From sequence record NC_047885.1: a DNA stretch of 64,000 nucleotides, one strand, 5' to 3'. The notes beneath the pieces are model-generated. The model was not told the origin of the DNA. It did not search any database and worked only from the letters and a program-made list of their open reading frames with translations. Positions 9,501 to 41,893 of the stretch are shown here, in pieces. The DNA is from Escherichia phage chee24. The position numbers were made by a program, and so were the translations under genes. Position 1 is the first letter of the stretch, and the number at the start of each line of letters is the position of its first letter.

Positions 9501-9680
9501 CATTTTTAAATGCGAATCATTATCATTTGCATTTCACTGTCTAACTGATAATCATTTCACTTTTTAAATGAGAATCATTTCACTTTTTGAATAGTTCTCA
9601 TTCCGCTTTTTAAATGAGAATAATTATCATTCGCATTTCACTTTTTAAATGAGATTGATTCTCATTATCATTCGCATTTA
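9501..9680. repeat. AT-rich repeat array (five copies of CACTTTTTAAATGAGAAT-like unit with palindromic AATGAGAATCATT cores)
   Basis: Visible repeated units at roughly 20-40 bp intervals. Confidence 0.6.
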
Positions 9681-9932: not shown

Positions 9933-10261
9933 AGATTTTTGTGACTTCGATTGGAGGGTGTGTGATTGTATGGGTTTGAGGAGAAGGTGAGAGAGCGAGA
10001 GAAATTTTGGTACTAGAAGGGTGTGGGCGCAGGATTGGTGCGGAGCACCTGATTTGCGGGGATTTTGGGGAAGATGTAAGATAATTTGGGAAGATTTGAG
10101 ATAGGTGCAGAAAAAGTGAAATTTTATTAGCAAAATGGGGCAAAATAGCTTGACAAGTGAAAATTCCTGTGGCTCTAAAAACTCAGGCAATCATGGGCCT
10201 TCGGCCCGAAATAATGCTGCTATTTTCAGGGGAGTAAAAGTTCCTAAAAACTTAGGCGTTT

Positions 10262-10310
10262 GTGCAAATCCGACCATAAATTTCTAGAAATGCAGTGTGC
10301 AAATCCGACA
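10262..10310. repeat. two further copies of the GTGCAAATCCGAC iteron
   Basis: Copies at 10262 and 10297, each followed by a TTCTAGAAA or TTCTGGAAA palindrome-like motif. Confidence 0.7.
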
Positions 10311-10339
10311 GTAATTTCTGGAAATGTGTTTTCAAAAAA

Positions 10340-35503: not shown

Positions 35504-35578
35504 TGGTGCACCCTGTTCGTATCGAACGAACCTCTCAAGCTCTTCAGGCAAGCGCTAATCCATCTCAGCTAAAGGTGC
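35504..35578 (-). tRNA. tRNA-Phe (GAA)
   Basis: Hand-folded; anticodon loop CTGAAGA; T-arm GTTCG-TTCGATA-CGAAC; anticodon stem has mismatches. Confidence 0.5.
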
Positions 35579-35584
35579 AAATTT

Positions 35585-35660
35585 TGGCAAACCCACTAGG
35601 ACTCGAACCTAGACCGTACGGTTTTGGAGACCGACATGCTGTCCAGTAACACTCTAGGAA
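35585..35660 (-). other. tRNA-Trp-like 3' portion (anticodon CCA) lacking a pairing 5' acceptor strand
   Basis: T-arm CTAGG-TTCGAGT-CCTAG, CCA end and CGGTCTCCAAAACCG anticodon region resembling tRNA-Trp; no complementary 5' acceptor found. Confidence 0.35.
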
Positions 35661-35669
35661 TGCAGAAAT

Positions 35670-35763
35670 TGGTACACCCACGGAGAATTGAACTCCGATT
35701 CTCAGATTGAACTCCGATTCTCAGATTGAAATCCTGATGTCCTAGCCATTAGACGATAGGTGT
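35670..35763 (-). tRNA. tRNA-Glu (TTC) carrying a 19-nt tandem duplication
   Basis: 94 nt; acceptor, D-arm and anticodon arm TCAGG-ATTTCAA-TCTGA intact; unit ATTGAACTCCGATTCTCAG repeated at 35687-35705 and 35706-35724. Confidence 0.5.
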
Positions 35764-35771
35764 ATTAAATT

Positions 35772-35859
35772 TGGTGGGCGTTAATGGAGTCGAACCACTC
35801 GAGTCGCAATGACCAGGGATTTACAATCCCCTCCGCTACCACTTACGGAATAAACGCCC
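35772..35859 (-). tRNA. tRNA-Tyr (GTA), class II
   Basis: 88 nt; anticodon arm GGGGA-TTGTAAA-TCCCT; long variable arm; perfect acceptor. Confidence 0.65.
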
Positions 35860-35987
35860 ATATTTAGAAGCATTCAAATACTTGTTTAAACACTTTTAAA
35901 TATGTTTCCGAATTAGATAACTATTATACCAAGTTTTAAGGCACTGAGCAAGTCAAATTTTAAAGAACTTGCTCAGTGCTGTATTAG

Positions 35988-41095: not shown

Positions 41096-41597
41096 TTTAA
41101 GTATTTTTAAGAACTCTCGTAAAAACTCTTAAAAATACAGACGATACCGGGAGAGTCATAAGTCTCACTCATTAAGTATTTCAAGACAAAATACAGTAAC
41201 GTCTATTATTTTCCAGTTTAAGTCAAGGTGACTTAGTGGTTATGTCCTGCGGTATACTGAGGACTAGGTTAGGTTAGGGTCATGACTCCCCACCTTTTTG
41301 CTGCTACTCAACAGGAGTTATCGCGAATTACCTGTGCTATTGTGCACCATTAGTGGCATCTCTCATGCCAGCATTTCCCACTTTGTGGATAGTTTGAAAA
41401 ACTACTCCGATATGGAGAAAGAACTTCACTATCCTAGAATACCTTCTAAAGTTCTTCTTTAGCCTGGACATAGTTAAATCGTAATAAAACTATTCAGCAG
41501 ACTGGTTGGTTAGTCTGGAACCAACTACCGCGTGGTTTAGGCAGTGCGCAACTAACCTCGGAAGCTTTTACATTAAAAGCACCAGTTATCCAGTTCT

Positions 41598-41670
41598 TAC
41601 CGACCGTAGGATTCGAACCTACATCTTCCACCAGTTACGGCTTGATAATACCGTTTTATACTAGATCGGC
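41598..41670 (-). other. tRNA-like element (acceptor and perfect T-arm; anticodon arm unresolved)
   Basis: T-arm GTAGG-TTCGAAT-CCTAC and acceptor GCCGATC/GGTCGGT; CCA not encoded. Confidence 0.35.
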
Positions 41671-41893
41671 AGTGTTACTACATAAGTGATTTCCACACCC
41701 CACTATCAGTAAATTAGAGAAGAGTTTAGGGGAGAGGTTTCAGACGCCCCATTTTACACGTTCTAGCCACTAACCGGGATTGCCGCCCCCTGTGTACTAG
41801 TTTTCCAACTAACCCACCGACTCTATTCAATGCGCTCCGGTTGGGATTCTGCACTCAGCGTAATCGGCTCGCTGTTCTCTAATTTATGAATAT

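What the first reader, a model, noticed from the sequence alone, without database searches (positions are those of the whole stretch)
35670..35763. tRNA-Glu gene interrupted by a 19-nt tandem duplication
An otherwise canonical tRNA-Glu (TTC) carries two exact copies of ATTGAACTCCGATTCTCAG (35687-35705 and 35706-35724), duplicating the variable/T-arm segment. It may be a pseudogene in the making or a slippage product.
Basis: seen in the sequence. Interest (0 to 1): 0.55.

Follow-up and report, generated by a model that had tools for sequence, protein, structure and literature searches.

The report
Phage tRNA-Glu gene with 19-nt duplication
A T5-like phage carries a glutamate tRNA gene in which one replication slip duplicated 19 bases, adding an extra hairpin that probably cripples a gene the phage can live without, so it is a real but ordinary mutation.

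Summary
The window is a T5-like coliphage of the chee24 group. Its tRNA-Glu(UUC) gene (35670-35763, minus strand, 94 nt) contains two exact adjacent copies of a 19-nt unit. Removing one copy gives a 75-nt gene that is 100% identical over 74 nt to the tRNA-Glu of phages HildyBeyeler and MET_P1_100_107. About 68 GenBank records carry the unduplicated form. Only five near-identical sibling records from one study carry the duplication.

The duplication boundaries coincide with a 10-nt imperfect direct repeat spaced exactly 19 nt apart (GGAuUUCAAU in the anticodon arm, GGAgUUCAAU in the T arm). That is the signature of replication slippage.

The insert falls in the variable region. All four arms survive and a 5-bp extra hairpin can form, so ARAGORN and Rfam still call a tRNA that looks like a class II tRNA. 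However, a 4-nt variable loop lacking residue 47 is a major E. coli GluRS identity determinant, so charging is probably impaired. That step is inferred.

The gene is dispensable. Orthologues were broken independently by a 34-nt duplication in GSW6 and by a 9-nt inversion in about 12 Salmonella phages that have no tRNA-Glu at all.

Verdict: a real, lineage-specific slippage allele, probably neutral decay, of low to moderate interest.

The parts
35670..35763 (-). tRNA-Glu(UUC) gene, 94 nt, with encoded CCA (35672-35670). Acceptor stem ACACCUA/UGGGUGU, discriminator A73.
   Evidence: ARAGORN; Rfam tRNA 47.5 bits; annotated tRNA-Glu P29_t0021 in MF431732.
35706..35724 (-). Tandem copy A of the 19-nt unit (tRNA positions 40-58, CUGAGAAUCGGAGUUCAAU).
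   Evidence: Exact identity of the two copies; TRF.
35687..35705 (-). Tandem copy B of the 19-nt unit (tRNA positions 59-77).
35725..35734 (-). Anticodon-arm member of the imperfect direct repeat (GGAuUUCAAU). With the T-arm repeat GGAgUUCAAU 19 nt downstream it forms the microhomology that primed the slippage.
   Evidence: TRF extends the array to 35734 as 2.5 copies. Repeat search on the reconstructed 75-mer finds 10 nt with 1 mismatch at offset 19, the second longest among 26 tRNAs.
35728..35730 (-). Anticodon UUC (tRNA positions 34-36), within the intact anticodon arm at 35721-35737.
   Evidence: ARAGORN cloverleaf; position map.
35698..35720 (-). Enlarged variable region, 23 nt instead of 4. 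It has a predicted 5-bp stem UCGGA/UCUGA (35713-35717 with 35702-35706) and a 6-nt loop.
   Evidence: ARAGORN drawing; energy evaluation; Rfam places a 20-nt insert in the variable region.
35681..35697 (-). Functional-looking T arm (CGGAG UUCAAUU CUCCG) formed by the distal copy.
35772..35859 (-). tRNA-Tyr, the upstream neighbour in the same cluster, 8 nt from tRNA-Glu.
35504..35661 (-). tRNA-Trp (35585-35661) and tRNA-Phe (35504-35578), the downstream members of the Tyr-Glu-Trp-Phe cluster.
35923..35951 (-). Probable promoter of the cluster: -35 TTGCTC (35951-35946), 17-nt spacer, TG-extended -10 TATAAT (35928-35923). It is the homologue of T5 promoter P14a.
   Evidence: Alignment to the T5 region carrying the annotated promoter P14a. 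The generic promoter scan did not call it because the -35 hexamer matches only 3 of 6. It is assigned by homology only.

Best explanation
The 94-nt gene is a lineage-specific mutant allele of the 75-nt tRNA-Glu(UUC) found in many T5-like phages. One slipped-strand mispairing event, or an equivalent unequal exchange, occurred between two nearly identical 10-nt stretches lying 19 nt apart: GGAuUUCAAU in the anticodon arm and GGAgUUCAAU in the T arm. This duplicated the 19 nt between them. The extra sequence lies where class II tRNAs carry their long variable arm. The acceptor, D, anticodon and T arms all stay intact, and the duplicated half-stems can pair into a 5-bp hairpin. The RNA is presumably still transcribed with tRNA-Tyr, Trp and Phe from the P14a-like promoter. 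Host GluRS needs a 4-nt variable loop without residue 47 and the U13.G22:A46 triple, so the 23-nt variable region most likely reduces or abolishes charging. The allele is tolerated because the host supplies tRNA-Glu and the phage copy is dispensable. Shown: the duplication, its restriction to one lineage, the flanking repeats and the retained cloverleaf. Inferred: the slippage mechanism, transcription, impaired charging and neutrality.
For: Exact 19-nt tandem copies. The junction is found only in five sibling records, MF431731-35, and not in IMG/VR or metagenomes. The de-duplicated 75-mer is 100% identical over 74 nt to the HildyBeyeler and MET_P1_100_107 tRNA-Glu, and about 68 records hold the intact form. 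A 75-nt tRNA-Glu sits in the same Tyr-Glu-Trp-Phe synteny in IrisVonRoten. The direct repeat of 10 nt with 1 mismatch lies at offset 19. ARAGORN gives a cloverleaf with a 5-bp variable arm. Rfam tRNA scores 47.5 bits, against 53.6-54.7 for intact orthologues, with the insert in the variable region. The ancestor carries every major E. coli GluRS determinant and the duplication changes only the variable-region length, from 4 to 23 nt (identity rules from PMC9976931). The MFE of the 94-mer is a non-cloverleaf rod (-26.5 against -24.7 kcal/mol for the cloverleaf), whereas the 75-mer's MFE is the cloverleaf. Dispensability: the inversion allele is fixed in 18 records; the S147 tRNA array has 28 tRNAs and no tRNA-Glu; T5 variants with tRNA-region deletions are viable and T5Mos has lost 16 of 23 tRNAs (PMC11464382).
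Against: No expression, processing or charging data exist. Apart from the duplication the allele shows no further decay. Its one difference from HildyBeyeler, G1 to A, improves the 1-72 pair, so it could still be under selection or simply be very young. This phage has no second tRNA-Glu, so loss of function would leave it fully dependent on the host. The T5-type tRNA-Glu has a 5-nt variable loop and a different D arm. If that tRNA is charged by E. coli GluRS, the residue-47 rule may not be absolute for phage tRNAs. The five records are 100% identical over 16 kb and come from one laboratory, so they amount to a single observation of the allele.
Confidence: 0.7

Rival explanations
1. The duplicated gene encodes a working tRNA-Glu with a long variable arm. 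It would be a natural class I to class II architectural conversion that is still processed, charged by GluRS and used in translation.
For: All four arms, the anticodon loop, the T-loop consensus and the encoded CCA are intact. The insert sits where natural long variable arms sit and can form a 5-bp stem. Both ends of the original variable loop are preserved: GAA on the 5' side and U next to the T stem. The allele is kept in all sequenced members of the lineage, shows no further damage, and is the phage's only tRNA-Glu.
Against: The absence of residue 47 and the A46 triple are listed as major GluRS identity determinants (PMC9976931). The predicted cloverleaf is 1.8 kcal/mol less stable than a competing rod fold that sequesters the anticodon, and the occupancy of the cloverleaf helices falls about five-fold relative to the ancestor. 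No other phage has such an arm, so there is no conservation or covariation to support it. Sister lineages lose the gene without obvious cost.
Confidence: 0.2
2. The duplication is an assembly or sequencing artefact and the phage really carries the normal 75-nt gene.
For: All carriers come from one study and one pipeline, Nextera XT, NextSeq 2x150 and SPAdes. They are identical over the region. No independent collection holds the junction.
Against: The whole 38-nt repeat with unique flanks fits within a single 150-nt read, so nothing has to be resolved by the assembler, and assemblers tend to collapse tandem copies rather than create them. Five separately sequenced isolates with slightly different genome lengths (120,618 to 120,629 bp) all show it. 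The event has a clean microhomology explanation. Analogous rearrangements exist in unrelated laboratories' genomes.
Confidence: 0.04
3. The altered tRNA was selected for a non-canonical role, for example evading or decoying a host tRNA-cleaving defence, or being mischarged by a synthetase that recognises long variable arms (SerRS).
For: T5-family tRNAs do act as counter-defence: tRNA-Lys against PARIS (PMC11464382), tRNA-Tyr against a retron (title and abstract seen), and tRNA-Thr against OLD. E. coli SerRS identity rests mainly on the variable arm and ignores the anticodon (PMC9976931).
Against: None of the defence tRNases in the papers read targets tRNA-Glu. The tRNA lacks the conserved Ser acceptor features G1-C72 and G2-C71 and has A73 rather than G73. 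LeuRS does not use the variable arm, so the duplication changes nothing for it. The allele occurs in one clonal lineage only.
Confidence: 0.05

Closest known systems
The 75-nt tRNA-Glu(UUC) of T5-like phages (e.g. HildyBeyeler bas33_0096, IrisVonRoten bas32_0095)
   Same: Same position between tRNA-Tyr and tRNA-Trp. The sequence is identical over 74 nt once one repeat copy is removed. It has the same anticodon, D arm, T arm and encoded CCA.
   Different: The window's gene has 19 extra nucleotides in the variable region (94 against 75 nt), and A1 instead of G1 relative to HildyBeyeler.
E. coli tRNA-Glu (host substrate of GluRS)
   Same: Identical D stem GUCU/GGAC (U11-A24 and U13.G22), A26, U34-U35-C36-A37, and, in the ancestral form, a 4-nt variable loop with A46 and no residue 47 (host sequence verified).
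   Different: The acceptor stem is A1-U72 and C2-G71 instead of G1-C72 and U2-A71, with A73 instead of G73. The duplicated allele has a 23-nt variable region.
Class II tRNAs (Leu, Ser, bacterial Tyr) and nematode nev-tRNAs (PMC3333845)
   Same: A stem-loop between the anticodon arm and the T arm. nev-tRNAs show that a long-arm tRNA can carry a 'class I' anticodon and still enter the ribosome.
   Different: Natural long arms are conserved and serve identity or structure. nev-tRNAs arose from tRNA-Leu by anticodon change. Here a class I body gained an arm by a recent duplication of its own half-stems, with no conservation and none of the Ser or Tyr identity elements.
Decayed tRNA genes and 'tRNA-like stable RNAs' of the phage T5 tRNA region
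   Same: The T5 record annotates a pseudo tRNA-Gln and several tRNA-like RNAs inside the same array. Deletions of the region are viable. The window's allele fits this pattern of turnover.
   Different: Those elements are old and diverged. This allele is a single clean event whose ancestor can be reconstructed exactly.
Independent rearrangements of the same gene: GSW6 (34-nt tandem duplication) and the S147 group (9-nt inversion)
   Same: They affect the same roughly 45-nt segment (anticodon-stem 3' half, variable loop, T arm), and each is bounded by short repeats inside the tRNA.
   Different: Different events with different outcomes. The GSW6 copy no longer aligns full-length to the tRNA model and has an intact second tRNA-Glu beside it. 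The inversion destroys the T stem and ARAGORN finds no tRNA.

Membership tests
tRNA (Rfam RF00005) | Cloverleaf with acceptor, D, anticodon and T arms scoring above the family threshold | tested here: met
   47.5 bits against a gathering score of 29, model positions 1-71, with the insert in the variable region. ARAGORN gives a cloverleaf.
tRNA (Rfam RF00005) | The cloverleaf is the thermodynamically favoured fold | tested here: not met
   The MFE is a rod-like fold at -26.5 kcal/mol, and the class-II-like cloverleaf is at -24.7. The 75-nt ancestor's MFE is the cloverleaf. This is a weak test, because modifications and tertiary contacts are ignored.
tRNA-Glu recognised by E. coli-type GluRS | U34, U35, C36, A37 in the anticodon loop | tested here: met
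   The anticodon loop is AUUUCAA. Determinants are from PMC9976931.
tRNA-Glu recognised by E. coli-type GluRS | U11-A24 pair and U13.G22 pair of the augmented D helix | tested here: met
   The D stem GUCU/GGAC is identical to E. coli tRNA-Glu.
tRNA-Glu recognised by E. coli-type GluRS | Four-nucleotide variable loop: A46 available for the triple and residue 47 absent | tested here: not met
   The variable region is 23 nt in the window's gene and 4 nt (GAAU) in the reconstructed ancestor and in relatives.
tRNA-Glu recognised by E. coli-type GluRS | G1-C72 and U2-A71 (weak determinants) | tested here: not met
   A1-U72 and C2-G71. The same is true of the intact IrisVonRoten allele, and HildyBeyeler has G1.U72.
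tRNA-Glu recognised by E. coli-type GluRS | Actual aminoacylation with glutamate | not testable with these tools
   Needs an in vitro or in vivo charging assay.
Class II tRNA (long variable arm) | Base-paired arm between the anticodon arm and the T arm | tested here: met
   Predicted 5-bp stem UCGGA/UCUGA with a 6-nt loop.
Class II tRNA (long variable arm) | Arm conserved among relatives, and Leu, Ser, Tyr or Sec identity | tested here: not met
   No relative has the arm. The anticodon is Glu. The E. coli Ser features G1-C72 and G2-C71 are absent and the discriminator is A73 rather than G73.
Intron-containing tRNA gene | Insert with intron features (group I fold, or a bulge-helix-bulge motif, typically at 37/38) | tested here: not met
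   The insert is 19 nt, lies 3' of the anticodon stem, and is an exact copy of the adjacent sequence.
T5-group 75-nt tRNA-Glu orthologues | Synteny Tyr-Glu-Trp-Phe and sequence identity | tested here: met

The most novel reading that the evidence does not exclude
The 94-nt RNA is a stable, processed tRNA with a Glu anticodon and a long variable arm that still takes part in translation, charged with Glu or partly with another amino acid. That would be a natural one-step conversion of a class I tRNA into a class II architecture by duplication of its own half-stems.
Probability: 0.12. Interest if true: 0.6.

Novelty: new member of a known kind. Interest (0 to 1): 0.27.

Why it matters
On its own this is a small, probably neutral mutation in a dispensable phage gene. 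It has three modest points of value. First, it is a clean natural example whose ancestor can be reconstructed to the base. It shows how internal similarity between the anticodon arm and the T arm of a tRNA can, in one slip, produce a molecule with the outline of a class II tRNA, which bears on how long variable arms could arise. Second, with the GSW6 duplication and the S147-group inversion it shows that this tRNA-Glu is repeatedly broken at its own short repeats in T5-like phages. That is evidence that not every member of these large tRNA arrays is under strong selection. Third, it is a practical warning for annotation. tRNA finders call the 94-nt gene a normal tRNA-Glu, and at least one record (PMBT36) labels the inverted allele tRNA-Glu, so counts of phage tRNAs overstate the working set.

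Tried and rejected
- Intron: rejected. The insert is an exact copy of adjacent sequence, is 19 nt long and is not at an intron site.
- Backup tRNA-Glu in the window: none. ARAGORN finds one tRNA-Glu among 26 tRNAs, and there is no T5-type tRNA-Glu within 3 mismatches.
- Wider occurrence of the duplication: the junction is absent from IMG/VR and JGI metagenomes. A gapped length-census pattern in IMG/VR returned only four loci, all of intact length, too few to be useful.
- chee24, the sixth member of the group: the guessed accession MF431730 is not in the collection. From its published length, 120,622 bp, the same as pork29 and saus47N, it very probably carries the duplication, but this was not seen directly.
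- Sekine et al. 1996, the primary source for the residue-47 determinant, is not held. The 2023 review was cited instead, so no quantitative effect size is given.
- The generic promoter scan did not find the cluster's promoter. It was placed by homology to T5 P14a instead.
- 'Mutational hot spot': only partly supported. The repeats lie exactly at the breakpoints, but the gene's repeat content is high rather than extreme among the 26 tRNAs.
- Defence-evasion and mischarging readings: no supporting evidence was found.

Full report
**What the window is.** The region matches five GenBank records at 100% identity: Bacteriophage T5-like pork27, pork29, saus47N, saus111K and poul124 (MF431731-35). Window coordinates equal those of pork29, saus47N and saus111K. 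These are Tequintavirus phages of the chee24 group, isolated from meat in one study. They were sequenced with Illumina 2x150 reads and assembled with SPAdes (PMC5816814). ARAGORN finds 26 tRNA genes on the minus strand between 28 and 42 kb, which is the usual T5 tRNA region.

**Check of the observation.** Positions 35687-35705 and 35706-35724 are identical. Tandem Repeats Finder reports a 19-nt period with 2.5 copies at 35687-35734. The junction string occurs once in the window and never in shuffled sequence. ARAGORN calls a 94-nt tRNA-Glu(UUC) at 35670-35763. Rfam's tRNA model scores it 47.5 bits against a threshold of 29. The GenBank record annotates it simply as tRNA-Glu. In tRNA sense the duplicated unit is CUGAGAAUCGGAGUUCAAU, at positions 40-58 and 59-77. 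It covers most of the 3' strand of the anticodon stem, the 4-nt variable loop, the 5' strand of the T stem and the first bases of the T loop.

**Ancestral state and distribution.**
- Deleting one copy gives a 75-nt gene that is 100% identical over 74 nt to the tRNA-Glu of phages HildyBeyeler and MET_P1_100_107. It differs at one D-loop base from that of IrisVonRoten, which also starts with A1.
- Those phages annotate a 75-nt tRNA-Glu in the same Tyr-Glu-Trp-Phe cluster.
- A 38-nt query across the copy junction, which can seed a megablast word only if the duplication is present, hits only the five sibling records.
- The exact junction is absent from IMG/VR and from the metagenome collection.
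- The five siblings are 100% identical over 16 kb, and the next relatives are about 94-96% identical. The allele therefore belongs to one clonal lineage.

**How it arose.** In the reconstructed 75-mer, GGAUUUCAAU (end of the anticodon-stem 5' strand plus the anticodon loop) and GGAGUUCAAU (end of the T-stem 5' strand plus the T loop) match at 9 of 10 positions and lie exactly 19 nt apart. This is the second-longest internal direct repeat among the 26 tRNAs of the array. It is also the reason TRF sees 2.5 copies. Slipped-strand mispairing between these repeats gives exactly the observed product. The mechanism is inferred from the sequence and was not observed.

**What the RNA can do.**
- ARAGORN folds the 94-mer as a normal cloverleaf plus a 5-bp hairpin (UCGGA/UCUGA, 6-nt loop) in a 23-nt variable region.
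- Rfam likewise treats the extra bases as a variable-region insert, at a cost of about 6 bits relative to intact orthologues, which score 53.6 and 54.7.
- Thermodynamically, the cloverleaf with the extra arm (-24.7 kcal/mol) is less stable than a rod-like fold (-26.5) that pairs part of the anticodon loop. The 75-mer's minimum-energy fold is the cloverleaf.
- The predicted probability that all four canonical helices coexist falls from 0.064 to 0.013. This is weak evidence, because modifications and tertiary contacts are ignored.

**Charging.** I verified the host tRNA-Glu sequence against 5,394 E. coli genomes and mapped positions. The ancestral phage tRNA has the same D stem as E. coli tRNA-Glu (U11-A24 and U13.G22), A26, U34-U35-C36-A37, and a 4-nt variable loop with A46. 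According to the tRNA-identity review PMC9976931, the strong determinants for E. coli GluRS are U34, U35, C36 and A37. [quoted passage not shown] The duplication leaves all of these untouched except the last feature, turning a 4-nt loop into 23 nt. I therefore infer reduced or lost glutamylation. No effect size can be given, because the primary paper was not available.

**Dispensability, and an unexpected pattern.** The same gene is rearranged independently in other lineages.
- *GSW6:* in Salmonella phage GSW6 the orthologue carries a perfect 34-nt tandem duplication covering the anticodon arm, the variable loop and most of the T arm. It occurs in that phage only. The gene now gives only a partial hit to the tRNA model, while an intact T5-type tRNA-Glu sits 8 nt downstream.
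- *S147 group:* in 18 records, about 12 Salmonella Epseptimavirus phages from several laboratories, the segment GAAU-CGGAGUUCA-AUUC has become GAAU-UGAACUCCG-AUUC. This is a 9-nt inversion between the inverted repeats GAGAAU/AUUCUC. It breaks the T stem. ARAGORN finds no tRNA there, and Rfam drops to 35.2 bits with two non-pairs. Most depositors do not annotate it.
- *S147 array:* the whole 24-kb tRNA region of S147 has 28 tRNAs and no tRNA-Glu.
- *Overall count:* among 93 records holding this gene type, about 68 are intact, 18 are inverted, 5 have the 19-nt duplication and 2 (one phage) have the 34-nt duplication.
- *T5 deletions:* T5 variants with deletions in the tRNA region are viable, and T5Mos has lost 16 of 23 tRNAs (PMC11464382).

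Together these results show that a phage-encoded tRNA-Glu is not required. They make neutral decay the most economical reading of the window's allele.

**Rivals.**
- *A functional long-arm tRNA-Glu* cannot be excluded. The allele shows no further damage and is this phage's only tRNA-Glu.
- *An assembly artefact* is unlikely. The 38-nt repeat lies within single reads and was recovered in five separate assemblies of slightly different length. Only reads or PCR can settle it.
- *A selected role in counter-defence or mischarging* has no support. The defence tRNases described in the papers read target Lys, or Thr, Gly, fMet, Val and Pro, not Glu. The tRNA lacks the conserved acceptor features of E. 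coli tRNA-Ser, and LeuRS ignores the variable arm.

**Comparison with what is known.** The gene is a member of the T5-group 75-nt tRNA-Glu family by synteny and sequence. It meets the general tRNA model. It fails one defining feature of GluRS substrates, the 4-nt variable loop. It resembles class II tRNAs only in outline. The nearest structural precedent, the nematode nev-tRNAs (PMC3333845), are long-arm tRNAs with class I anticodons. They arose the opposite way, from tRNA-Leu by anticodon change. The T5 record itself annotates a pseudo tRNA-Gln and several tRNA-like RNAs in the same array, so turnover of tRNA genes here is already known.

**Verdict.** The duplication is real and arose by slippage in one lineage of T5-like phages. 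It is probably a neutral or mildly deleterious allele of a dispensable gene. It is a new instance of a known kind of event, and its interest is low to moderate. The interest is raised slightly by two things: the reconstruction is clean to the base, and the same gene has been broken three different ways at its own internal repeats.

Noticed in passing
L008 134-203 (= L012 about 2501-2610; Salmonella phage GSW6, NC_111398 / OQ362005): The orthologous tRNA-Glu carries an independent, perfect 34-nt tandem duplication (2.1 copies) spanning the anticodon arm, the variable loop and most of the T arm. An intact T5-type tRNA-Glu lies 8 nt downstream. The record annotates no tRNAs in this region.
   Followed up: partly
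L007 41-114 (Salmonella phage S147, MH370386) and 17 further records: In the same gene the 9 nt CGGAGTTCA are inverted to TGAACTCCG between the inverted repeats GAGAAT/ATTCTC, which destroys the T stem. The allele is 100% identical in about 12 Epseptimavirus phages from several laboratories. S147 has no tRNA-Glu in its 28-gene array. One record (PMBT36) still labels the locus tRNA-Glu.
   Followed up: partly
Window 35585-35859, compared with L010 9178-9428 (T5), L012 and L011: The slot between tRNA-Tyr and tRNA-Phe is a mosaic of unrelated cassettes. T5 has a different, 77-nt tRNA-Glu (GUCCUGU...) where this phage has the ACACC-type, and GSW6 has both. Two different tRNA-Trp types are also exchanged among these phages, and ARAGORN does not call the T5/S147-type Trp in S147.
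   Followed up: partly
L010 9258-9334 (phage T5 tRNAE): T5's own tRNA-Glu has a C.A mismatch in the T stem (GCGGG/CCCAC), whereas the GSW6 copy of the same type is perfectly paired (GCGGG/CCCGC). It also has a 5-nt variable loop and lacks the E. coli-like D stem, so it does not follow the E. coli GluRS identity rules.
   Followed up: no
Window 41597-41671 (-): ARAGORN calls a 'tRNA-Ser' with the unusual anticodon ACT. Rfam tRNA scores only 34.5 bits. ARAGORN also calls tRNA-Ser(act) in L002, and a tRNA in the same part of the S147 array (order only, not aligned) is called tRNA-SeC(TCA). It is probably an aberrant or decayed tRNA-like gene.
   Followed up: no
Window 35941-35979: A perfect 13-bp inverted repeat (GCACTGAGCAAGT ... 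ACTTGCTCAGTGC) lies just upstream of the tRNA cluster, conserved in T5 and IrisVonRoten. It overlaps the -35 element of the P14a-like promoter. It may be a terminator for the upstream operon.
   Followed up: no
Window 9530-9673 and 10261-10326: Imperfect tandem repeats with periods of 23 and 35 nt, and 34 nt. Their function was not examined.
   Followed up: no
Whole window, against PMC5816814: The source paper reports 18 tRNA genes for the chee24 group. ARAGORN finds 26 in this window, and the GenBank record numbers its tRNA locus tags at least up to P29_t0023, so published tRNA counts for these phages are inconsistent.
   Followed up: no
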